Assembly (NCBI GenBank): GCA_002763225.1
Contig: PFAI01000057.1
Location: 1-10,050, forward strand
Direction: 5' to 3'
Length of the DNA: 10,050 bases
Origin: Candidatus Diapherotrites archaeon CG10_big_fil_rev_8_21_14_0_10_31_34
GTDB taxonomy: Archaea > Iainarchaeota > Iainarchaeia > Iainarchaeales > 1-14-0-10-31-34
Below the pieces are notes generated by a model. The model had not been told where the DNA came from and did not search any database. It saw only the letters and a list, made by a program, of their open reading frames with translations. Both the position numbers and the translations under genes were made by a program. This document shows positions 236 through 10,050 of this stretch, in pieces (position 1 is the first letter of the stretch; each line of letters starts with the position of its first letter).

Positions 236-1225
236 TTACAGAAAATCTTTTGGCTTGGCTTTCTTAAAAGCAGAATTAGTTTTTTTTACTGGAATTTTTT
301 TTATTGGTTGTTTTTTAGTTATGGATTTTGTTGTTTTCTTTTCAGTTTCAACATTAACTAAATAGATTTTTGTGTCAAACACAAAAGAGAAAACTGAAAT
401 CCACAAAGTATAAAAAATTTCAATTACAATGCGCAGTAAAATTGCAAAAATTACAAGCCAAACAATTTGGCCTGAACTTACGCCGGTCAAAGAAAAAGTT
501 AACAGCAAATAAATTAAAGTGATTAATCCGATAAAAACAAACATTAAAACAAAAAAAGCAAGATTAGACAAATAATTTTTTTTACCCAAAAAAATTGCTC
601 TTTTAATTGAATCAACTGCAGAATGTGATTCAAAAAAAGGAATCTGTTTGTAAATTATAGTAAACGGAGAAATAACTAAATTGAAAATTGAAAACAAAAT
701 TATTCCCAGAAAAAGAGAGCCTATAACTGAAAATACAATTGAAAAAATTTGTTCAGGAGAACTAAAAGCAAGTGAAGCCAGAGAAATGCTTTCAATTAAA
801 TTAAGCACAGAAAAAATTAAAGGAAAAAAACACAGCAAAAAAACTATTCCAAAAAAAACTGCAACAATTAATTCAACCTTAAAAGAAGTAAAAATTCTTG
901 GTTTGGTTTTATCAAATGCAAGACCTAAATCAATTTTTCCTTTTTCAAGATAATTTTTTACAAGATTTAAGGAAGTTCCGTTTATTGCTGAACCAACTAA
1001 AAGCATTAAAAAAAAGAAAATCAAAAACAACAAAAAATAGATTAAAAAACCTATTAAGGTTAACTGAAAAAAAACAAATAAAATTGCTCCGATAAAAACT
1101 CCTGCAAACACCAATGCAATAAAACCAATCACTGATAAAAGCATTATTAAAAATAAGTAAAGCCATAACCTAAAATCAAAACTTTTCTTTAAAACAAAAG
1201 AAAAGGAATCAATTACTCCCGTCAT
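236..1225 (-). CDS. Polytopic membrane protein of unknown function with a Lys-rich C-terminal tail (resembles DUF975/GPDPase-membrane-domain-like proteins)
   Basis: 329-aa ORF with about three pairs of long hydrophobic segments separated by amphipathic basic linkers (IDLGLAFDKTKPRIF, SAVDSIKRAIFLGKKNY) and a tail EKKTTKSITKKQPIKKIPVKK. A TATA-like element lies 23-29 nt upstream of the ATG. Confidence 0.85.
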   Translation of the reverse strand: MTGVIDSFSFVLKKSFDFRLWLYLFLIMLLSVIGFIALVFAGVFIGAILFVFFQLTLIGFLIYFLLFLIFFFLMLLVGSAINGTSLNLVKNYLEKGKIDLGLAFDKTKPRIFTSFKVELIVAVFFGIVFLLCFFPLIFSVLNLIESISLASLAFSSPEQIFSIVFSVIGSLFLGIILFSIFNLVISPFTIIYKQIPFFESHSAVDSIKRAIFLGKKNYLSNLAFFVLMFVFIGLITLIYLLLTFSLTGVSSGQIVWLVIFAILLRIVIEIFYTLWISVFSFVFDTKIYLVNVETEKKTTKSITKKQPIKKIPVKKTNSAFKKAKPKDFL

Positions 1226-1279: not shown

Positions 1280-1774
1280 ATGGATGAAAAAGTTGTTCAG
1301 GGCGGAAAATTTCTGGTTGTACTGGTTTTATCTTTTACAGTTTTATCAGCTTTAATTGACTTTTTGATTCCATTGAAATGGATTGAATTATTGCTTGCAA
1401 AAATTGTTGTAGTGTTTACTGGAGGAGAAATTGTTGTTCAGCAGCCTGTCATGATTTTAGCTGAAAACTTTTCGGTTCAAATAAGTTATTTATGCACAGG
1501 ATTAATGGAATTCATTGTATTGGTTGCAGCAATAATTGCAACAACAGGAATAAAAAAAGAAAAAAAATTGATTGGAATAATAAGGGCAGGAATAGCTGTT
1601 TTTTTATTTAATGCAGGCAGAATAATAATTACAATTTCTTTGATTGAAAAAACTGATTTACAGACAATAGAATTAGCTCATGATTTGCTGTTCAGAATTT
1701 CATTGTTTGTGTTAATTGCAGGATATTATTTTGTCTGGTATTATTCAGCGGTTAAAGGAAAAACCAAAAAATAA
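1280..1774 (+). CDS. Archaeosortase/exosortase family protein (short form)
   Basis: 164-aa membrane protein with the family's ordered motifs: ISYLC72TG followed by a TM segment, N111AGR114I in a TM segment, H134D before the last TM segment, and a basic C-terminus. The subfamily cannot be assigned by eye. Confidence 0.88.
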   Translation: MDEKVVQGGKFLVVLVLSFTVLSALIDFLIPLKWIELLLAKIVVVFTGGEIVVQQPVMILAENFSVQISYLCTGLMEFIVLVAAIIATTGIKKEKKLIGIIRAGIAVFLFNAGRIIITISLIEKTDLQTIELAHDLLFRISLFVLIAGYYFVWYYSAVKGKTKK

Positions 1775-2250: not shown

Positions 2251-5200
2251 GTGATTTCAGAAACGCTTGGAAATATTTATGCTTCAATAGAAAACAAATT
2301 TTATTCAGTCTTTGATTTTCTGGAAAACAAAGGGCTTCCGGTTTATTCAGTGATTGACCCGATAGAAGAAAAAGGAATACCGTTTTTTCCTTTAACAATT
2401 GGATTAATTGTAATACTGCTTACAGCAATATTTGGTTTTGGAGTAATCGGAACAGACTTTGATTCAGCAATTACAGTAAACTTAAAAGACGATTATGGAA
2501 AAGGATTAAGTTCAGTTAAAATAACTGCATGGGATGCAAAAGGAAATGAATTATTTAATGGAACAAAAAACAATGCAGATATAATTACAATTAAAGTGCA
2601 GGCAGGAGCAGAACTGACATTTAAAGCAGAAAAAGAAGGATATGATGATTCAAGTAAAATAACAATAAAAGTAATAAACAAAGATGAAGAAGTCAGTTTA
2701 AGTTTAAAAAAAATAATTAATTCAATTCAGGCAAAAATAAGGTTTTATGACGAAGAAACAGAAACAACTGTTTCAAATGTACAGGCAACAATTGAATGGC
2801 AGGGAATAATAAAAGAAGCATTATCAGATTCAGATGGATTAATAGAATTTTTGGAAATCCCACTAGAAGAAGATTTATACATAACTGCAGTTGCTGATTC
2901 TTATTACGAAAAAACCGCAAGCATCAGATTTGAATCAGATGAAACAAAATCAGTTTATTTGACTCCAAAAGAAATTGCTTTTGAAGGACAAAGCAATCTG
3001 ATAATAACTTTGTTTGACGAAGAAGGAAATCTAATTGAAAACGCTAAAGTAAAAGTTTTTAATGCATTAAACGATGAATTAATTGACGAAAAAATAGTTG
3101 GAGACGGAGTTTATTCAGAAAACTTTCCTAAAGGAATGGTATTAAGATTTACAGCAGAAAAAGAAGGATTTAAGTTATTTGAATCAAATGAATTCACTTT
3201 AAGAGGAGAAGAAGAAAATCTTGGCGCAATAGAATTAGAAAAAGGCGGAAAAGAAATTATAGTAAAAGCAATTTACTCTGACACAAAAAACCCTATAGTG
3301 GGAGCAGCCATTATATTATTTAATTCAAAAAAAGAAATAATTAATTCCAGCACAACCTTGTATGAAGGGCTAACTGAATTCAAAGGATTAGATGTAGAAC
3401 AAGAATACTGGATTGGAGCAGAAAAAGAAGGTTATGTTCCTGCAATAAAAAAAGTTGAATCAGATTCAGAAGAAATTGAATTAATTAAAGCCAATTCTTC
3501 CAACTCAGGGGAATTGTCAATTATAGCAGTAGATGAAGAAGAAAACCCAATAGCAAATGCATCTCTTTTTTTCACTCAAATAAAAGGAGAAGAAACTGAA
3601 GTAATTCCTTTAGGAACAGGAGTAAAGCACACAGATGAAAACGGAAAATTCAGTTTAACCGTTCCATTAAACAGCGAAATATTTGTTAATGCAGTAAAAG
3701 ATTTATTGGTTGGAGGAGAGTCACTGAAAATTGAGTATCCGACAAACAATAATATGCTAATCAGGCTTGCAAAAAAAGATTCAGTTAAAAGCATTAAATT
3801 TTTTGATGAAAAAGGACAGATTTTAGGTGGCAGTTTAATAATCAAAACAAAAAACGGAGAAACAATATTTGAAGGAGCAGTAGAAGAAGAAATATTATTT
3901 GATGCACAAGGAAACAATTTTGTTGAAATAGAATTAACTACCCCTGAAGGAAAAAAATATTCAGAAGAAATAAATGTTGAAGGAAAAACAGACATTACAG
4001 TTGATTTGGATTCAAGAGAAATAAATGAAAAAACACCTGAAATAGAATTTTTGGGAATTTATGATATTGCAGGAAATGAAGTTGAAGGAATAACTAAAGG
4101 AAAAGAATATATTTTAAAATTTAAAACTGAATGGAGTTCAGGACTGGAATCAGGAGGACTGCATTTCCGAACAGGAAGCGATTCAATTAAATACGCTGAC
4201 TCAGAAGACATTGGAATAACAGGATTTGACGGAGCAACAAACAATTATTTTTACGGAAGAAGTTTTACTCCTACTCCTTCACCAGGCTATAAAGAAATAG
4301 ATTACTCTAATTCAGGACAGGGAGGAAAACTAAACAAATTCATTGAATTATATTACAATAACCCCGAAGGAACAAAAATAATTAAAGTAAGAGTTAAAGC
4401 AAGAGAAACAATTTCACAGGAAATTGTAAGAATAAAATACAGGGCATGGAGTTACTCAGACGGATATCATAACAGAAACCCGTTTGATTCAGTTTTAGAG
4501 AAAGCAAAACAAACAGAAGAAAAAGAATCATTATATGCTGACACAGAAGAAATTGAAATAAAAGTTTATGATTCAGAACCAGAATGCATGGAAGAAGTAT
4601 GCGTTCAATACAAGTTTGTTTCAGAAGACGGACAAGAGTTTGACAAAAAAGACTTTTTTGGATTAAAAGACAAAGTTTATGCATTAGAAATGAATTTAGA
4701 GGCAAGGCTTTCAACTACAGCAACATTTAAGTTAAACACTTCAAATGAAAGCCCAAGAATTGCTTTTACAGGAAATGAAATTGGTTCTTTCAGCCAGTTT
4801 ATTGACAACAATAAAAGTGATACTTTAATTGAATTCAAATCAACTGTTTCAAGAGACGGCACAAAAGCAAGAGTTTATTTTAAAGCAAAAGAACAAGGAG
4901 AAAGCTTTATCAAAACAAATATTATTTCTCCAAAAGATTCAATGACAGAAAACTTTTACTTTAAAATATTTGAAGAAAAAACAATGGAAATTACTGCACC
5001 TGAATCAATTAAAGAAGGACAAAACTTTGAAGTAATAGTAAAAGATGAAGAAGGACAAGGAATTGAAAACGCCGAAATAACTTTACTGAATTCAAAAGGA
5101 AGAATAGAAAAAACAATTTTTGCTGACGAGTTCAACGGAACAAACGGAAGATATTCAGTTGAAAATAATCTGGCTCCGGGAAAATATTTGATTAAAGTCA

Positions 5201-8200
5201 AGTCAGATAAATTTAAATCAGAAGAAAAAGAAATTGAAATAGTTTTTGGAACAGGATTAGAACTAGAGCCAACAACTGAAATGAATATTCCTTCAGGACA
5301 AATATTTTTATCAAAAAGAATTGAAATAAAAAATTTGACTGAAAACCTGATTGAAAATTTAAGTGCAGAAATAGTTCCTGCAGGAAACTTTCCAAAAGAA
5401 TTCAAGTTAAGCGTTAATACTCCTGCAGTATTAAACTCAAAAGAAGAAAACACAATTGAATTAATTGCAGAATACTCAGGAAATACTAATGCAATAATGC
5501 ACGGAGAAGCAGAAATAATTATAACAGGATTAATTAAAGGAACTCAAATTAAAACACAAACAAAAGCAGTAATAAATTATAACCAAAAATTAGATGCAGA
5601 TTGTTTAGAGTTTGACAGAACTGAATTAACAGAATATTTAATTGGAGCAGGAGGGAACTCAAAACAATTAGAATTAGGATTAAAAAATAACTGTGGGATT
5701 ACATTAGAATTTGAATTAGAAGCAATAGCAAAAGGACAGTCAGACAATGAAATTGAATTCAGTGCAGGAAGAATTGTAATAGCAAAAGATGAAGTGAAAA
5801 CAATTAAAATAGGGGTAATAAACAAAATCCAGAGAAATTTTTTGGCTCAAACAAATTTTGAATATGATTTATTTTTTAATTCAAGCCAGCTGACAAAAAG
5901 CATTCCGGTGAAAATAATTTTATGGAATGAAATGTTTGCATTAGATGTAAGCCCTTCAATAGTATTATGGTTAACCCAAAGCAGAAAAGGAGAACAAGCA
6001 ATTGCCGCACAATCAATTTTTATCAGGAATACAGGATTAGCTGACATTCAGAATTTAAGTTTTGCAACACAATTTGACAAGCCGGGAAACACAAAAATTA
6101 ATGTAGAGTATGCTTATTCAACAGGAAAAACAATATCAGAACTAAAAAAAGGAATGAGTTTAATTCCAACTCCTGTTTTACAGGCAATAACTGATACAAC
6201 AGAAAACCAAGAAATAATAGGAAAAGTAATTGTTTCAGGAGTAATAAACGGAAAACAATATGCTTTAAGAGAAATAAATGTTTTTGTTAATGTCAGTTCA
6301 GGTTGGAGCTGCCTGGAAGCATGGTCAGATGACATGCAGTTTTATTCCCCTACAGCAGAATTTGGTTCAATAGACAAAACACTGAATATAGTAAACAATT
6401 GCTTGGAGCCAGTAATAATTAAAGGAATTGAACCACAAAAAATCGGCGGCAATGAAATAAATTTAATTGACTCAGATTATGTTTTACAGCCAGGAACAAA
6501 AGACTCATTTACTTTAAAACTAACAAAAAAAGCTGAAACAAACCAGAAAGTAAAACTAAAGGTAGTGGGATTAGGCCAAAGATCAGGCGGAAAAGAAATT
6601 TATTCAATGCCTTTTGAAGCAGAAATTGCAATCGGAAAAGGAGCAGGATTATGTGGGGGAGACAATGAACCCTGCCAGTATGAAAACACAACAACATTAG
6701 AGTACTGTGATGCAGAAGGAACAGCAACAGTTTTCTTTCCAAAACAATCAACTAACTGCGGAGAAGGATACTGCGATGCAGAAGAACTAGGAAAGTTTTT
6801 ATCAGAAAAACTTGAAGAAGAATTCAGAAAAGCACAGCTAAGAATCTCTGATGTAAAAAGCGTTGAAAACCTCGGAGCAAAATGCGAAATAAGAGACAAT
6901 TACTGTTCTTTTGGCGCACTAGGAATTTCTTCCACTTCATTTGAATTTTATTTAAAAAACGATAATTTAACTGATGACTTACTTGAAAGCGAAATGAAAA
7001 AACTTGGAGCAAAAGAAATACAAAATGCTTTTATCAGATATGGAGGCACTGAACAAGATTTGTATAGTTCTGCCGGAAGCTCTTTTGGAAACCACTTAAT
7101 ATTATTTCCTTCAATCAGGGGCTGTGGAAAATACACTGCAAGAATAATCGGGGCAGTAGCAATAAACGGAAACGAAATAAGAAGCGATTCAATTTCACTG
7201 CTGTTAAAATTAGAGCCAAACACTAAAGGAGAAATAAGAGAAGAAACCCCTGAATGCAACAGCAGAATCCAAAATTTCATGAATTTTTTGCCGGTAGATG
7301 AATCATATTCTCCTGGCACCGGAAACTCAAAAGGAAGCTGGCTTGGAATAATAATTCAGAACCCGGAAATTGAATCACTGCAAAAAATTTTTGCTAAAAC
7401 TTTATTCAAAGACGATAAAGGAATAAGAGTTACAGCCAATAAAGAAAACAATTTTTTGAGGTTCAGCAAAGCAAGCTTTGACCAGACAAAAGGAATAGTA
7501 AAAATTGCAATGGAAAGAACTGGTTCAAGTGACTCACCAAAACAATTAGATATTTTTATTACAGACAAATATTTTAATGCACCAGAAGAAGTAGAAAAAG
7601 GAATTGCATCAGAAGCAGGAATGATTATTTCTAATTTAAAGAACGGAGTAATAGAAAAAGGATGCATTTCAGAAAACATGGATTACCTGATTTTAGGCGA
7701 AGTAAAAAACATTGCAGAATTGCTTGACTTAAAATGGACTGACTCAAGCAGTTTCATCAATTTGTATCCAAACAATTATACCTGCACGAGATTAAAAATG
7801 TCAAGCAAATTAGATGCACCTGAAGTAGAAGTTTCATGGGATTTAGTAAGCAAAAAGTTATCAGGAATACTAAAAAAAGAAACAGTTTTCAAGTATCCTA
7901 ATGGAGAAGAAATAACAAACAAAGGAGAAAAAAAATTCAGTTTAAGCAAGCTTAGATGGGAAGAAGCAGGAAACAATTATACAACTGAATTTGATTTATG
8001 CTTTAAAGGAACAGACAATCCAAGAGATGCAAAAGACTCTAAAATAAAATTGCAGGCAACAGGACTAAAAGACAGAACACTTCAATTCGGAGTCTGCGCT
8101 ATTCTTCCAACAGAATTTTATGACAAATCACAGCAAATAACTGAAAAAAGCACTTGGTATGCAACAGTTGACTGGGAAGGAGCACCAGACAAAGTTCCAT

Positions 8201-9645
8201 TACAGGCAATCAGAGATCATTATTATGCACTTAACCCAGAAAAACTTCCGGAAAACATTCTGAAAAAAGATTTAAGCGAAAGAAAATGGCTTGGAGTATT
8301 AGGTTATACTATTGGTTCAATAGTTGGTTATGCTGTAGCAGCTCCATTAACCGGAGGAACTTCTCTTGGAGCAGCAGTACTTGATTTAAGTATGGGGACT
8401 TTGCCTGCAATTGCAATAGCTGCTTTTTCTTCTGAAGGAGAAGCATTTACAACTGCTTTAAACGCAGCAAAAAGTGGATTAAAATCAATTGGGATTAGTG
8501 CAGGAGAAATAGAAGCAATTCAAAAAGAAACAGAATTAAGCGACTCAGACTTTTTTTGGGAAATGTCTAAATTAAATGCAATTAACTGGGGAATAAAAGA
8601 AACAGGAAAAGCAGCATTAGTTACAGTTAACTCAACAGCAAAAGATGCAGCTGAAGCCGCAAAAGTGATTAATTCAGCAGGAGCACCAGAATTAATTGAC
8701 GAATTAGCTGTAATCCAAACCGACTTAACAAACTATAATGAAGCAAAACTTGATTTAAAAAACGCAGGAATAGAAAGAATAGGGGTAACTAAAAATGGAG
8801 AAAGATTTATTGATGATGCAACAAATTTGAGACATGTTGAAGGAGGAGCTGGTGATTTTACTAGAAAATATAATGACATGATCAAAGCACTAAGAAAAAC
8901 CACTTTAAAAGGGCAAAGCCCAGGAAATATGGAAAAAATATTAGATGAAACTTTTAAGGTAAGTACAAAAACAGCAACCAAAGCAGAATTTATTGTGGAT
9001 GAGATTGTAAATGATCAAACAAATGGAATAGTAAAACAATTAGAAGAATGGGGAGCAAAAGTTGAAGCAAAAGCAAACCCAAACACCGTTGAAGGAAAAA
9101 ACCTGCTTAACTTGAAAAAACAATTTGCGGACCTCGCAGCAAACAAGGTAAGAGCAGGAGAAGAATTCATTCCGCCTGCAGGAGCAACAGCAACAGAAAT
9201 AACCACAGAGTTAGCAAAAGCAAAAGCACTTTCAGCTAAAGGAAAAATTGTTTCTTTTTTTGAACAGCATCCAAGATTAAAAAGATTATCTAAAGGAGTA
9301 AGATTAGGAATAGGACAATGGGTTGGAGGAGCATTAGGATGGATGGGAATGAATGCATTATTAGGCCCAATAGAAGGAATTCCAACTCCTGAAACAACTA
9401 ATGCAAAATCAGCATATTTTGAAAAAGGAAAAACATACAAAGTAGAAATCGGATTAAATTTGGATAAAAAACCAACTTACACTTTTTCATTAGTTGAACC
9501 AGAAGACCTGCCAAATATTCCTGCAGACAAAAGATTAGACAAAGACAAAGTAGGAGAAGGAATATGCAATCAGCCATTAAAACCATTAACTCCTGAACTA
9601 ATTGATGCAATCAAAAAATGGGAAGAAAGAGAAGCAAACAAATAA
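2251..9645 (+). CDS. Giant membrane-anchored cell-surface protein (2464 aa) with carboxypeptidase-regulatory-like/Cna-B-like repeats, Ig-like modules, a Cys-rich region and C-terminal hydrophobic Gly/Ala-rich segments
   Basis: Uninterrupted 7.4-kb ORF with a GTG start and SD. TM segment at aa ~45-67. Repeated motifs of the type (V/F)xDxxGxx(I/L)xNAx(V/I)...AEKEG(Y/F). 20 Cys, all from aa 779 onward. At least 15 N-x-S/T sequons. Hydrophobic segments at aa ~2013-2059 and ~2349-2372. Confidence 0.93.
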   Translation: MISETLGNIYASIENKFYSVFDFLENKGLPVYSVIDPIEEKGIPFFPLTIGLIVILLTAIFGFGVIGTDFDSAITVNLKDDYGKGLSSVKITAWDAKGNELFNGTKNNADIITIKVQAGAELTFKAEKEGYDDSSKITIKVINKDEEVSLSLKKIINSIQAKIRFYDEETETTVSNVQATIEWQGIIKEALSDSDGLIEFLEIPLEEDLYITAVADSYYEKTASIRFESDETKSVYLTPKEIAFEGQSNLIITLFDEEGNLIENAKVKVFNALNDELIDEKIVGDGVYSENFPKGMVLRFTAEKEGFKLFESNEFTLRGEEENLGAIELEKGGKEIIVKAIYSDTKNPIVGAAIILFNSKKEIINSSTTLYEGLTEFKGLDVEQEYWIGAEKEGYVPAIKKVESDSEEIELIKANSSNSGELSIIAVDEEENPIANASLFFTQIKGEETEVIPLGTGVKHTDENGKFSLTVPLNSEIFVNAVKDLLVGGESLKIEYPTNNNMLIRLAKKDSVKSIKFFDEKGQILGGSLIIKTKNGETIFEGAVEEEILFDAQGNNFVEIELTTPEGKKYSEEINVEGKTDITVDLDSREINEKTPEIEFLGIYDIAGNEVEGITKGKEYILKFKTEWSSGLESGGLHFRTGSDSIKYADSEDIGITGFDGATNNYFYGRSFTPTPSPGYKEIDYSNSGQGGKLNKFIELYYNNPEGTKIIKVRVKARETISQEIVRIKYRAWSYSDGYHNRNPFDSVLEKAKQTEEKESLYADTEEIEIKVYDSEPECMEEVCVQYKFVSEDGQEFDKKDFFGLKDKVYALEMNLEARLSTTATFKLNTSNESPRIAFTGNEIGSFSQFIDNNKSDTLIEFKSTVSRDGTKARVYFKAKEQGESFIKTNIISPKDSMTENFYFKIFEEKTMEITAPESIKEGQNFEVIVKDEEGQGIENAEITLLNSKGRIEKTIFADEFNGTNGRYSVENNLAPGKYLIKVKSDKFKSEEKEIEIVFGTGLELEPTTEMNIPSGQIFLSKRIEIKNLTENLIENLSAEIVPAGNFPKEFKLSVNTPAVLNSKEENTIELIAEYSGNTNAIMHGEAEIIITGLIKGTQIKTQTKAVINYNQKLDADCLEFDRTELTEYLIGAGGNSKQLELGLKNNCGITLEFELEAIAKGQSDNEIEFSAGRIVIAKDEVKTIKIGVINKIQRNFLAQTNFEYDLFFNSSQLTKSIPVKIILWNEMFALDVSPSIVLWLTQSRKGEQAIAAQSIFIRNTGLADIQNLSFATQFDKPGNTKINVEYAYSTGKTISELKKGMSLIPTPVLQAITDTTENQEIIGKVIVSGVINGKQYALREINVFVNVSSGWSCLEAWSDDMQFYSPTAEFGSIDKTLNIVNNCLEPVIIKGIEPQKIGGNEINLIDSDYVLQPGTKDSFTLKLTKKAETNQKVKLKVVGLGQRSGGKEIYSMPFEAEIAIGKGAGLCGGDNEPCQYENTTTLEYCDAEGTATVFFPKQSTNCGEGYCDAEELGKFLSEKLEEEFRKAQLRISDVKSVENLGAKCEIRDNYCSFGALGISSTSFEFYLKNDNLTDDLLESEMKKLGAKEIQNAFIRYGGTEQDLYSSAGSSFGNHLILFPSIRGCGKYTARIIGAVAINGNEIRSDSISLLLKLEPNTKGEIREETPECNSRIQNFMNFLPVDESYSPGTGNSKGSWLGIIIQNPEIESLQKIFAKTLFKDDKGIRVTANKENNFLRFSKASFDQTKGIVKIAMERTGSSDSPKQLDIFITDKYFNAPEEVEKGIASEAGMIISNLKNGVIEKGCISENMDYLILGEVKNIAELLDLKWTDSSSFINLYPNNYTCTRLKMSSKLDAPEVEVSWDLVSKKLSGILKKETVFKYPNGEEITNKGEKKFSLSKLRWEEAGNNYTTEFDLCFKGTDNPRDAKDSKIKLQATGLKDRTLQFGVCAILPTEFYDKSQQITEKSTWYATVDWEGAPDKVPLQAIRDHYYALNPEKLPENILKKDLSERKWLGVLGYTIGSIVGYAVAAPLTGGTSLGAAVLDLSMGTLPAIAIAAFSSEGEAFTTALNAAKSGLKSIGISAGEIEAIQKETELSDSDFFWEMSKLNAINWGIKETGKAALVTVNSTAKDAAEAAKVINSAGAPELIDELAVIQTDLTNYNEAKLDLKNAGIERIGVTKNGERFIDDATNLRHVEGGAGDFTRKYNDMIKALRKTTLKGQSPGNMEKILDETFKVSTKTATKAEFIVDEIVNDQTNGIVKQLEEWGAKVEAKANPNTVEGKNLLNLKKQFADLAANKVRAGEEFIPPAGATATEITTELAKAKALSAKGKIVSFFEQHPRLKRLSKGVRLGIGQWVGGALGWMGMNALLGPIEGIPTPETTNAKSAYFEKGKTYKVEIGLNLDKKPTYTFSLVEPEDLPNIPADKRLDKDKVGEGICNQPLKPLTPELIDAIKKWEEREANK
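2302..2385 (+). repeat. Degenerate 42-nt (14-aa) tandem duplication in the N-terminal pre-TM segment
   Basis: YSVFDFLENKGLPV / YSVIDPIEEKGIPF. Both DNA copies begin TATTCAGT (2302, 2344). Confidence 0.75.
2470..4010 (+). repeat. About six tandem beta-sandwich repeats with a ~88-aa period in the first four; a seventh copy lies at ~5026-5240
   Basis: GCAGAAAAAGAAGG (AEKEG) occurs at 2626, 3154 and 3418 (spacings 528 and 264 nt), with a degenerate copy AVADSY at 2887. Repeat starts include LKDDYGKGLSSVKI, FYDEETETTVSNVQA, LFDEEGNLIENAKV, YSDTKNPIVGAAI, AVDEEENPIANASL, FFDEKGQILGGSL and VKDEEGQGIENAEI. Confidence 0.8.
5254..6640 (+). repeat. Ancient AB-AB duplication of Ig-like modules (~232-236 aa period)
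   Basis: IKNLTENLIENLS (5326) matches IRNTGLADIQNLS (6022). CLE-x25-NNC occurs at C1118/C1148 (5602/5692) and again at C1354/C1384 (6310/6400). Confidence 0.7.
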
Positions 9646-9821: not shown

Positions 9822-10050
9822 ATGGATAAAAAAGGTTTTACTTTATTCACTGCATTAGTTTCTTTTGTACTGATTTTATTAACTGCAATGATTGTTCAGA
9901 CAATGATTAAAGCAGAAAGAGACAGAACAGAAGTAATGTCAAATATAGAAGAACAAGCAGAAATGCAGGCAATGGCTGACTTAACCAGAGCAGAAGCATT
10001 ACAGACATTTAATTATTCTTTAAGAAAAAAAATAGAAGAATACTTTGATT
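9822..10050 (+). CDS. 5' part of a type IV pilin-like protein with a class III signal peptide (runs off the window)
   Basis: Not in the supplied ORF track. Translates MDKKG|FTLFTALVSFVLILLTAMIVQTMIKAERDRTEVMSNIEEQAEMQAMADLTRAEALQTFNYSLRKKIEEYFD. It has a short basic leader, a KG|F prepilin-peptidase site, a ~20-aa hydrophobic stretch and a long amphipathic helix. Confidence 0.85.
   Translation, partial: MDKKGFTLFTALVSFVLILLTAMIVQTMIKAERDRTEVMSNIEEQAEMQAMADLTRAEALQTFNYSLRKKIEEYFD

What the first reader, a model, noticed from the sequence alone, without database searches (positions are those of the whole stretch)
8287..9366. Pore-former/translocator-like module at the distal end of a giant anchored surface protein
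Seen: after ~2000 aa of acidic beta-rich sequence the protein switches abruptly to a 47-aa Gly/Ala-rich hydrophobic stretch (WLGVLGYTIGSIVGYAVAAPLTGGTSLGAAVLDLSMGTLPAIAIAAF, 8287-8427). This is followed by ~290 aa of Ala/Lys/Glu-rich, Cys-free, helical-looking sequence and a glycine-zipper segment (GVRLGIGQWVGGALGWMGMNALLG, 9295-9366). Known: APxTGGxSL-type turns inside hydrophobic hairpins occur in apolipoprotein L-like proteins and some toxin membrane-insertion regions, and GxxxG zippers mediate helix packing in membranes. Inference: an N-anchored stalk may present a tip that inserts into a partner or host membrane, as a contact, pore or fusion device for an episymbiotic archaeon.
Basis: partly seen in the sequence, partly recalled or inferred. 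Interest (0 to 1): 0.82.

Follow-up and report, generated by a model that had tools for sequence, protein, structure and literature searches.

The report
Distal head of giant archaeal fibre
The far end of this 2,464-residue surface protein of a tiny groundwater archaeon is a conserved, fast-evolving head with two greasy glycine-rich segments; in related species it is capped by enzymes that cut bacterial cell walls, so it probably touches or breaches other cells instead of anchoring the protein.

Summary
In detail: both segments lie exactly where stated, at the C-terminal end of ORF 2251-9645 (2464 aa).

They belong to a conserved module. Its order is: landmark block, hydrophobic hairpin, variable helical bundle, Gly-zipper helix, small beta tail. 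A profile of it hits giant frames in 135 of 215 genomes of the phylum; close relatives are titled Candidatus Iainarchaeum.

Neither segment looks like an ordinary membrane anchor.
- 0 of 48 hairpins and 0 of 48 zippers reach translocon-type hydrophobicity, against 6 of 6 N-terminal anchors.
- In 46 of 48 relatives two co-varying cysteines close the hairpin into a 14-30-residue loop. This protein has lost both.
- Orthologues carry murein hydrolases (SLT, NlpC/P60, amidases, glucosaminidase) after the module, so that end must lie outside the cell.

This genus has lost the terminal domain. The module evolves about three times faster than the stalk.

No fold or sequence link to ApoL, colicin, ClyA or translocators was found, but the model is weak at the two segments.

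Best reading: a target-contact head with conditional membrane-binding elements, working like the phage T5 tape-measure end. Membrane activity is inferred, not shown. The scan had already noted such tips on other Iainarchaeota DNA, and giant murein-cutting DPANN proteins are published.

The parts
236..1225 (-). 329-aa multi-pass membrane protein (context); same neighbour in G015
   Evidence: Hydropathy. Only a weak EI24/CysZ hit, E 0.0029, below the cut-off. Synteny in L009.
1280..1774 (+). 164-aa exosortase/archaeosortase-family membrane protein directly upstream (context)
   Evidence: TIGR04178 exo_archaeo, 4.3e-08, 33.3 bits against a cut-off of 23. Pfam Exosortase_EpsH 1.5e-05. Same position in G013 and G015.
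2251..9645 (+). Giant protein 1, 2464 aa (GTG start)
   Evidence: Full-length orthologues of 2404-2481 aa.
2251..2451 (+). Conserved 44-aa N-terminal leader plus the true TM anchor (aa 45-67)
   Evidence: Best 19-residue KD 2.68 and Hessa-type sum -3.1. The leader is shared with the three paralogous giants.
2452..8070 (+). Acidic Ig-like stalk, about 1870 aa
   Evidence: CarboxypepD_reg 4.2e-19, Big_1 1.2e-08, SdrD_B 7.5e-08. 65% mean pairwise identity among 6 orthologues.
8071..8286 (+). Landmark block opening the module (aa 1941-2012; 'C.I.P..F ... YATV.W.G', then K/R-K/R)
   Evidence: Invariant W and nearly invariant P in A3 and A5. Profile positions 1-145 are the part most often matched across the phylum.
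8287..8427 (+). Gly/Ala-rich hydrophobic helical hairpin (aa 2013-2059); the Cys staple of relatives is lost here
   Evidence: Predicted helical but pLDDT 30-47.
8428..8664 (+). Linker helices (aa 2060-2138)
   Evidence: Predicted helical, pLDDT below 50. 38% identity among orthologues.
8665..9237 (+). Variable helical bundle with a small beta insert (aa 2139-2329), the only confidently modelled part
   Evidence: pLDDT 83-92. Only generic helical-bundle matches, Z up to 7.4. Least conserved part, 29% identity.
9295..9366 (+). Gly-zipper helix (aa 2349-2372), preceded by basic residues; family consensus KG...G...N..G followed by aromatic residues
   Evidence: Invariant Gly columns. Best 19-residue KD 0.86 here and median 0.99 in 48 sequences.
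9409..9603 (+). Small beta tail domain (aa 2387-2451; 'F.K..TY.V ... Y ... R(L/I)D..C')
   Evidence: Invariant K, T, Y and nearly invariant C. Beta hairpin at aa 2395-2415 with pLDDT 50-76. The protein ends 13 aa later.
9822..10049 (+). Start of a 593-aa pilin-like protein (runs on to C21:11603) with a bacterial-type class III signal 'KKGFTLFTAL'
   Evidence: ComGF/ComGG/GspG N-terminal hits below their cut-offs. A pilin-like gene follows giant 1 in G013, G014, G015, G016, G018, G164, G165, G152 and G168.

Best explanation
nt 8071-9645 encode the distal 'head' of giant protein 1. This protein belongs to a surface-fibre gene cluster conserved in Iainarchaeota. In my calls the cluster holds a sortase-like protein, four N-anchored giants and a large pilin-like protein; in relatives a T2SSE ATPase lies next door.

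Shown:
- The head has a fixed order: landmark block, hydrophobic helical hairpin, variable helical bundle, Gly-zipper helix, small beta tail.
- It is the fastest-evolving part of the protein.
- In most relatives two covarying cysteines close the hairpin into a short loop.
- In relatives the head continues into a further C-terminal domain. Where that domain is recognisable, it is always a murein hydrolase.

Inferred:
- The head is held far from the cell on a long Ig-like stalk and meets the envelope of another cell, most likely a bacterium.
- The marginally hydrophobic hairpin, and the Gly-zipper helix with its basic N-flank and (in relatives) aromatic C-flank, are conditional membrane- or partner-binding elements and do not act as anchors.
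- They could work as the 46-residue hydrophobic stretch next to the muralytic domain of phage T5 tape-measure protein pb2 is proposed to work: kept shielded until contact, then inserted into the target membrane.

In this genus the terminal domain has been lost, and in this protein the Cys staple too. Here the head is reduced to its contact or insertion part. A wall-cutting SLT enzyme sits on a separate secreted protein.
For: (1) Conservation. Exhaustive HMMER with aa 1990-2464 finds 4 clusters in 1.84 billion representatives. A module profile (A3, 546 positions) hits 135 of 215 phylum genomes, 50 of 58 high-quality ones, in giant frames. The matches concentrate on the landmark+hairpin block and the zipper+tail block.

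(2) Not anchors.
- No 19-residue window has a Hessa-type sum below 0 in 0 of 48 hairpins (median +3.6) and 0 of 48 zippers (median +7.1).
- The 6 of 6 N-terminal anchors score -1.8 to -3.7.

(3) Cys pair.
- 46 of 48 sequences have at least 2 Cys enclosing 14-30 residues (median 24). None has exactly one, and 2 (this one and G015) have none.
- In the genus both Cys sit four residues nearer the turn than in other genera, a compensatory shift expected for paired residues on antiparallel helices.
- A loop that short cannot cross a bilayer twice.

(4) The end beyond the zipper is extracellular in relatives. 5 of 40 terminal segments carry Pfam murein hydrolases above cut-off:
- G016: SLT 6.4e-15
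- G168: SLT 1.1e-11
- G153: NlpC/P60 3.4e-07 plus Amidase_3 1.1e-11
- G150: Amidase_2 1.6e-29
- G175: Glucosaminidase 6.1e-10
G170, G006 and G003 have SLT in giant frames, with the same architecture read by eye. Several orthologues have an acidic Cys/Asp insert between zipper and tail.

(5) The wall attacked is foreign. SEDS (PF01098) is found in 0 of 9 and GT51 (PF00912) in 0 of 9 genomes of the family, 8 of them at least 90% complete. Controls were positive in 10 bacteria.

(6) Fast evolution.
- Stalk 0.648 against tip 0.341 mean pairwise identity. All 15 pairs show tip 0.29-0.42 against stalk 0.60-0.76, and no 440-aa stalk window falls below 0.608.
- Terminal branches are 0.27 against 0.78 changes per site.

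(7) Analogue. [quoted passage not shown]
Against: - No membrane activity is shown, and nothing computed here can show it.
- The AF2 model is of low confidence at both segments (pLDDT 30-47 and about 40). No fold match to any pore-former or fusogen was found.
- This protein lacks both the hydrolase and the Cys pair, and the genus lacks the common terminal domain (0 of 6 genomes). The head could be a decaying remnant here. One orthologue, G013, has an in-frame TAA in the tail.
- Small-residue-rich helices are also typical of tightly packed soluble or oligomeric cores.
- 35 of 40 terminal domains are not recognisable as enzymes. They compare with SLT only at 23.6% hhalign probability, without a conserved catalytic Glu.
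- No excess of population variants in the tip: 2 of 17 variable places and 0 of 3 substitutions among members at 90% identity or more.
- The disulfide is inferred from covariation only.
- The hydrophobicity sums use scale values recalled from memory without position terms.
Confidence: 0.45

Rival explanations
1. Structural core. The hairpin, the Gly-zipper helix and the beta tail pack together, or pack between copies or with other cluster proteins such as the pilin-like protein or giants 2-4. They would form a permanently folded knob that merely carries or positions the terminal enzyme. There would be no membrane insertion.
For: - The segments are rich in small residues (30-60% G/A/S/T/C in the loop). 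The helices have low hydrophobic moments and conserved polar residues: D/N next to the arm-2 Cys and an Asn in the zipper.
- The two blocks are conserved together while the middle varies.
- The zipper is too polar for a bilayer in 48 of 48 sequences.
- A Cys staple suits a stable extracellular fold.
Against: - AF2 did not pack these segments confidently against anything, though only 8 sequences were used.
- The hairpin reaches the classic KD threshold of 1.6 in 17 of 48 sequences.
- Basic residues precede both segments, and aromatic clusters follow the zipper in many relatives, as in interfacial membrane-binding segments. That comparison is from my own knowledge.
- Such fast evolution of the surrounding head is unusual for a purely structural core.
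Confidence: 0.3
2. Second anchor. The hairpin dips into the producer's own membrane as a re-entrant or two-helix hairpin. The giant protein would then form a loop, and the helical bundle, zipper and tail (with the enzymes in relatives) would sit at the producer's own surface.
For: - The hairpin is the most hydrophobic internal element (KD up to 1.74 here; Eisenberg mean 0.65-0.68).
- An even number of crossings keeps the later domains outside, so the topology is allowed.
- Giant 4 of the same cluster has a truly hydrophobic internal hairpin (KD 2.79, Hessa-type sum -2.6).
Against: - 0 of 48 hairpins have a window predicted to integrate.
- The Cys-closed loop of 14-30 residues is too short for two spans.
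- Conserved Asp/Asn and Pro lie in arm 2.
- A murein hydrolase held at an archaeal surface that has no murein would need the prey pressed against the cell.
Confidence: 0.12
3. Homologue of a known pore-forming family (ApoL, colicin pore domain, ClyA/Hbl/Nhe, T3SS translocator), as the first reader suggested checking.
For: - The general layout of a hydrophobic helical hairpin followed by amphipathic helices recalls such toxins (my own knowledge).
- A profile of 48 sequences gives weak, biased matches to exchangeable apolipoproteins: ApoA-IV E 0.0055 with domain i-Evalue 0.18, and apolipophorin III E 0.16.
- ClyA, XaxA/B and PaxB appear in the Foldseek list only at E 1.8-2.5.
Against: - No Pfam, NCBIfam or PHROG hit in the module.
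- Nothing at E <= 0.001 in PDB or BFVD by Foldseek.
- VIA best Z is 7.4, within the noise for helical bundles.
- ESM Atlas scores stay at 0.89 or below, with low recognition.
- The apolipoprotein matches lie in the variable middle and look compositional.
Confidence: 0.03

Closest known systems
[quoted passage not shown] 2021, PMC8204110; passages read)
   Same: These are extracellular proteins of up to about 3000 aa in small-genome DPANN archaea, thought to bind or degrade bacterial walls. Orthologues of this protein end in SLT or other murein hydrolases.
   Different: - They are described for Woesearchaeota and Pacearchaeota and defined by the SLT domain.
- This protein is from Iainarchaeota and has no hydrolase domain.
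- The hairpin/zipper/tail module is not mentioned in the passages I read.
- Sequence membership in fam00969 could not be tested.
C-terminal part of phage T5 tape-measure protein pb2 (PMC10038345, passages read; Boulanger 2008 seen only as its reference)
   Same: [quoted passage not shown]
   Different: - pb2 is a coiled coil inside a phage tail tube and is cleaved between the two parts. Here the stretch lies on a cell-anchored Ig-like stalk, 300-650 aa before the enzyme, with a bundle, a zipper and a beta domain in between.
- No sequence or fold similarity was found. Tape-measure proteins appear in BFVD only at E 0.39-0.6.
- The enzyme is absent in this genus.
SPEARE proteins of Nanohaloarchaeota
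   Same: Giant surface proteins of DPANN archaea, proposed to mediate host contact.
   Different: Different domains (as recalled: protease, adhesion, endonuclease), different lineage, archaeal host. No similarity was tested here.
Transmembrane glycine zippers (GxxxGxxxG) of channel-forming proteins (recalled; no paper read)
   Same: aa 2355-2363 read G...G...G, and the Gly columns are invariant in the family.
   Different: The helix is too polar to span a bilayer alone in 48 of 48 sequences. The family consensus has a conserved Asn and is followed by extracellular domains. No Pfam glycine-zipper family is hit at E <= 0.1.

Membership tests
DPANN giant extracellular murein-hydrolase proteins (fam00969-type) | Very large (over 2000 aa) extracellular protein of a small-genome DPANN archaeon | tested here: met
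   2464 aa, with an N-terminal anchor and Ig-like domains. Archaeal S8e and a 1.04 Mb genome. Relatives titled Candidatus Iainarchaeum.
DPANN giant extracellular murein-hydrolase proteins (fam00969-type) | Murein-like lytic transglycosylase (or other murein hydrolase) domain | tested here: not met
   No such domain in this protein (Pfam, NCBIfam). It is present in orthologues G016, G168, G170, G153, G150 and G175. In this genus SLT lies on a separate protein.
DPANN giant extracellular murein-hydrolase proteins (fam00969-type) | Sequence membership in the published family | not testable with these tools
   The family's sequences or model are not at hand. Supplements of PMC8204110 were not opened.
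Phage tape-measure protein of T5 pb2 type | About 46-residue hydrophobic stretch compatible with two helices | tested here: met
   47 aa in two arms, predicted helical.
Phage tape-measure protein of T5 pb2 type | Muralytic domain directly following, and phage tail gene context | tested here: not met
   No enzyme here. The context is a cellular surface-protein cluster. No relative was found in viral contigs with the two patterns used.
Phage tape-measure protein of T5 pb2 type | Sequence or fold similarity | tested here: inconclusive
   PHROGs gives no hit. The BFVD best E is 0.03, and tape-measure rows come at E 0.39-0.6. The model is weak at the hairpin.
ApoL / colicin pore domain / ClyA-Hbl-Nhe / T3SS translocators | Shared fold over the hydrophobic hairpin and surrounding helices | tested here: inconclusive
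   Foldseek PDB gives nothing at E <= 0.001, with ClyA, XaxA/B and PaxB at E 1.8-2.5. VIA best Z is 7.4, generic bundles over aa 2132-2330 only. pLDDT is 30-47 at the hairpin.
Transmembrane glycine zipper | GxxxGxxxG motif | tested here: met
   G2355, G2359 and G2363. Invariant Gly columns.
Transmembrane glycine zipper | Helix hydrophobic enough to span a bilayer | tested here: not met
   Best 19-residue KD is 0.86 here, with a median of 0.99 and 1.6 or more in 1 of 48. The Hessa-type sum is above +2.5 in 48 of 48. The scale values are recalled.
Exosortase/archaeosortase substrate | Tripartite sorting signal (motif, TM helix, basic cluster) at the extreme C-terminus | tested here: not met
   92 residues follow the zipper, including a conserved beta domain and an acidic end. 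No PGF/PEF/PEP-CTERM model is hit.

The most novel reading that the evidence does not exclude
The head is a cell-borne counterpart of a phage tail tip. A Cys-stapled, fusion-loop-like hydrophobic loop and a Gly/aromatic interfacial helix would insert into a bacterial membrane after the swappable murein hydrolase has opened the wall. This would give an archaeon contact-dependent access across domains to bacterial cytoplasm, by pore or local fusion. The enzyme-less, staple-less form in this genus would be a variant specialised for wall-less or already opened targets.
Probability: 0.2. Interest if true: 0.85.

Novelty: new variant of a known kind. Interest (0 to 1): 0.5.

Why it matters
How DPANN archaea recognise and breach partner cells is poorly understood (PMC11329633, introduction passage). 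I know of no cultured partner for Iainarchaeota; that is recalled, not searched.

This module gives a defined, conserved and expressible candidate, about 520 aa. It sits immediately before interchangeable bacterial-wall hydrolases on a long anchored fibre across most of a phylum. That makes three things testable:
- whether these archaea attack or dock onto bacteria;
- whether the hydrophobic loop is the membrane-active part;
- what the loss of the enzyme and of the Cys staple in this genus means.

If the segments turn out to be only a structural core, the finding reduces to a new domain of a protein class already reported.

Tried and rejected
- **Sequence searches.** The near-length word-index search found only the protein itself. 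The 'longer' search with A3 gave 5 genus-level proteins.
- **ESM Atlas.** Best score 0.89 with low recognition; viral hypothetical clusters, leads only.
- **PHROGs.** No hit for the module.
- **PDB by sequence.**
  - Profile A3 gave a phage J-like tail tip protein at E 0.0076, lying in the helical middle.
  - Profile A5 gave ApoA-IV at E 0.0055 with heavy bias. I judged both compositional.
  - Profile A4 gave nothing, and a single terminal domain gave nothing.
- **Fold searches.** Foldseek PDB and BFVD gave nothing at E <= 0.001. VIA wide gave only generic helical bundles.
- **Terminal domain (A4) against SLT (A6).** hhalign probability 23.6%, inconclusive.
- **Tip exchange by recombination.** The stalk and tip trees differ. 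However, the tip data do not reject the stalk grouping (AU p 0.366), so exchange is not shown.
- **Microdiversity.**
  - 17 variable places in contigs of 4 groundwater runs: 15 in the stalk (5820 nt) and 2 in the module (1575 nt).
  - 3 substitutions among cluster members, all in the stalk.
  - So there is no sign of ongoing diversification.
- **Expression.** No RNA holder was listed.
- **Viral contigs.** No relative with the two patterns used.
- **The search for related loci.** It could not use alignment A3.
- **Unintended profile.** Alignment A2 held one full-length row, so the search modelled the whole protein. I used it only to see where orthologue matches stop.
- **Second structure prediction.** The job on the 48-sequence alignment A5 was not accepted. 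Deep-alignment modelling of hairpin and zipper packing is therefore missing.
- **Complex prediction.** Not available, so nothing was folded.
- **Window start.** I looked for the start of the neighbouring ATPase gene at the window's first 175 bases and found only stop-rich frames.


Full report
**Observation**

The window holds one 7.4-kb ORF, 2251-9645 (+), of 2464 aa. The two quoted segments are at the stated coordinates:
- aa 2013-2059 = nt 8287-8427
- aa 2349-2372 = nt 9295-9366

Before them lie an N-terminal anchor (aa 45-67) and about 1900 aa of net-acidic sequence with Ig-like and CarboxypepD_reg domains. Residues 2001-2400 have no Cys, are Ala-rich and are predicted mostly helical.

A 47-aa window this rich in Gly+Ala and this hydrophobic occurs in 4 of 1666 ORFs of 80 aa or more in the genome. 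One of the four is the paralogous giant 4.

**Organism and context**

- The window is the start of a 42-kb contig of a 1.04-Mb genome that is 81% complete.
- The genome has archaeal ribosomal protein S8e. No SSU rRNA gene was found.
- The closest relatives with record titles are called Candidatus Iainarchaeum.
- The same DNA occurs in groundwater and aquifer metagenomes.
- The contig carries four giant ORFs in a row, of 2464, 2510, 2278 and 2397 aa. Each has a conserved N-terminal leader and a strong TM anchor.
- Giant 1 is preceded by a 164-aa exosortase/archaeosortase-family protein. It is followed by a 593-aa pilin-like protein. This order is kept in G013 and G015, where a T2SSE ATPase lies next door.
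- Earlier notes of this scan describe the cluster and the leader. My calls agree with them as far as I looked.

**How widespread the module is**

With the single sequence aa 1990-2464, exhaustive HMMER found 4 clusters among 1.84 billion representatives. tblastn-type search found it in 4 of the 5 other genomes of the genus and in 0 of 190 other genomes of the order. In the fifth genus genome the gene is cut by a contig end.

This first suggested a genus-limited module. A whole-protein profile, made unintentionally from A2, then showed something else. In other genera the orthologues match only up to about position 1815-1958, yet their frames continue for 580-900 aa.

Reading those tips showed the same order of elements everywhere:
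1. a landmark block ('C.I.P..F ... YATV.W.G');
2. a Gly/Ala/Cys-rich hairpin;
3. 300-450 variable helical residues;
4. a Gly-zipper helix;
5. a small beta tail with a conserved Cys (alignments A3 and A5).

A module-only profile (A3) hits 135 of 215 genomes of the phylum, 50 of 58 high-quality ones and 62 of 79 genera, in giant frames. Matches concentrate on the landmark+hairpin block and the zipper+tail block. In family f2 the profile finds nothing. There, two giants with SLT domains still show the same elements by eye.

**What follows the module in relatives**

- I examined 48 tip loci, and an HMM of A3 matched 45 of them. Of these, 40 have at least 100 residues after the beta tail.
- Of the other five, two reach a contig end, and three have 0-43 residues after the tail.
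- Pfam recognises 5 of the 40 terminal segments, and all five are murein hydrolases of different families: SLT (G016, G168), NlpC/P60 plus Amidase_3 (G153), Amidase_2 (G150) and Glucosaminidase (G175). G170 has SLT in the same frame.
- The other 35 share an unrecognised domain of 130-210 aa (A4). It resembles SLT only faintly (hhalign 23.6%, 63 columns, no conserved catalytic Glu) and matches nothing solved.
- In this genus the protein ends about 13 aa after the tail. The A4 domain is absent from 6 of 6 genus genomes. An SLT domain lies instead on a separate signal-peptide protein of 1150-1550 aa.
- The family's genomes lack murein polymerases: PF01098 in 0 of 9 and PF00912 in 0 of 9, with controls positive in 10 bacteria. 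The hydrolases must therefore act on foreign walls.

**Are the two segments anchors?**

*Hydrophobicity.* The best 19-residue window of the hairpin has median KD 1.52, reaching 1.6 or more in 17 of 48. For the zipper the median is 0.99, reaching 1.6 in 1 of 48. A simple sum of biological-scale values is positive in 48 of 48 for both (medians +3.6 and +7.1). It is -1.8 to -3.7 in 6 of 6 N-terminal anchors. The scale values are recalled and carry no position terms.

*Cysteines.*
- 46 of 48 sequences have at least two Cys in the hairpin, enclosing 14-30 residues (median 24). None has exactly one, and two have none: this protein and G015. Two of the 45 tips were left out of A5: L054, whose match is overlong, and L064, cut by a contig end.
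- Among eight genus-level sequences, six have the pair.
- In the genus both Cys lie four residues closer to the turn than in other genera.
- Joint presence, joint loss and a joint one-turn shift are what paired residues on antiparallel helices would show. I infer a disulfide staple. A loop that short cannot cross a bilayer twice.

*Topology.* The stalk before the hairpin, and the hydrolases and acidic Cys/Asp insert after the zipper, must all be outside the cell. The zipper alone therefore cannot be a single span. Ordinary stable anchoring in the producer's membrane is thus unlikely, though a shallow re-entrant dip of the hairpin is not excluded.

**Structure**

AF2 on aa 1990-2464 with 8 sequences gave mean pLDDT 60.8.

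| Part | Residues | pLDDT |
|---|---|---|
| Helical bundle with beta insert | aa 2139-2329 | 83-92 |
| Hairpin | aa 2013-2059 | 30-47 |
| Zipper | aa 2349-2372 | about 40 |
| Tail | beta hairpin aa 2395-2415 | 50-76 |

- Foldseek found nothing at E <= 0.001 in PDB or BFVD.
- VIA found generic helical bundles, best Z 7.4 with rmsd 3.9 over 130 residues, within the noise for such folds.
- A second prediction with the 48-row alignment was not accepted.

**Evolution**

- Among six full-length orthologues, the stalk has 0.648 mean pairwise identity and the tip 0.341.
- All 15 pairs show the drop, and no 440-aa stalk window falls below 0.608.
- Terminal branches are about three times longer for the tip.
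- The stalk and tip trees differ, but the tip data do not reject the stalk grouping (AU p 0.366). Cassette exchange is not shown.
- Within populations there is no excess of variants in the tip.

**Interpretation**

The module is the distal head of an anchored fibre. Its neighbours in evolution are interchangeable wall-cutting enzymes, so its business is with another cell's envelope, most likely a bacterium's.

The closest working analogue I could document is the end of phage T5 tape-measure protein pb2. [quoted passage not shown] I therefore read the hairpin and the zipper as conditional membrane- or partner-binding elements (confidence 0.45).

The main rival is a permanently buried structural or oligomerisation core (0.30). 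A re-entrant second anchor (0.12) and true homology to known pore-formers (0.03) follow.

Giant murein-cutting proteins of DPANN archaea are already published for Woesearchaeota and Pacearchaeota (PMC8204110; also PMC10936187 and PMC9723730). The scan has noted Iainarchaeota tips before.

What is added here:
- the anatomy of the conserved module;
- the covarying Cys pair;
- the topology argument;
- the counts across the phylum;
- the finding that this genus has lost both the terminal domain and, in this protein, the staple.

I searched for DPANN with transglycosylase, murein, peptidoglycan, membrane fusion and Iainarchaeota. The passages I read contained no description of this module. Supplements were not opened.

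Noticed in passing
window 1280-1774 (+): A 164-aa exosortase/archaeosortase-family protein lies directly upstream of giant 1. TIGR04178 passes its cut-off, and the best named subfamilies (XrtG, XrtX, pacearchaeosortase) are all far below theirs. The position is kept in G013 and G015. None of the four giants shows a classical C-terminal sorting signal by hydropathy, so its substrate is unknown.
   Followed up: partly
window 9822-10049 (+), continuing to G000:C21:11603: A 593-aa protein starts with a bacterial-type type IV pilin signal (KKGFTLFTAL...). It has no Pfam domain in the rest. A pilin-like gene follows giant 1 in the orthologous loci where the downstream frame was read. Its N-terminus also matches pilin-like N-termini of diverse bacteria at 28-43% identity.
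   Followed up: partly
L003 / L008 (G013:C10), beta tail of the orthologue: An in-frame TAA sits where other orthologues have a residue of the beta tail. The downstream frame still reads as the tail, and the deposited protein (P0008) ends at the stop. This could be a sequencing error, a recent truncation or decay.
   Followed up: no
G000:C50:1-1221 (-), and L028 1798-5388 (-) in G013: In this genus the only SLT lytic transglycosylase sits on a separate protein of 1150-1550 aa with a signal peptide and Cys-rich ends. The copy in the window's genome is cut by the contig end and by masked letters.
   Followed up: partly
G000:C21:26198-33391 (+), aa 1501-1557 of giant 4: Giant 4 has an internal Gly/Ala-rich hairpin that, unlike the one studied here, is truly hydrophobic (KD 2.79, negative insertion sum) and ends in a Cys-rich motif. 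It may be a real membrane hairpin.
   Followed up: no
L026, L027, L030, L031, L043, L057, L063, L067 (between zipper and beta tail): Several orthologues carry an acidic insert of the type D.D.DG..DEE.CDG.DNDGD..VDEDC, like a calcium- or metal-binding repeat. The Pfam MopE motif is hit only at E 7.9. The insert is absent from this genus.
   Followed up: no
L009 11706-13982 (+) in G015; L008 211-2490 (-) in G013: A 759-760-aa protein with a T2SSE (type II/IV secretion ATPase) domain lies beside the cluster in relatives. In the window's genome that position is beyond the contig start.
   Followed up: partly
L087 (G006:C4) and L088 (G003:C19): Giants of family f2 are not matched by the module profile, yet show the same hairpin (with Cys pair), zipper and tail by eye. 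These are followed by SLT plus a GDSL-like motif (G006) or SLT and further C-terminal sequence that I did not scan (G003).
   Followed up: partly
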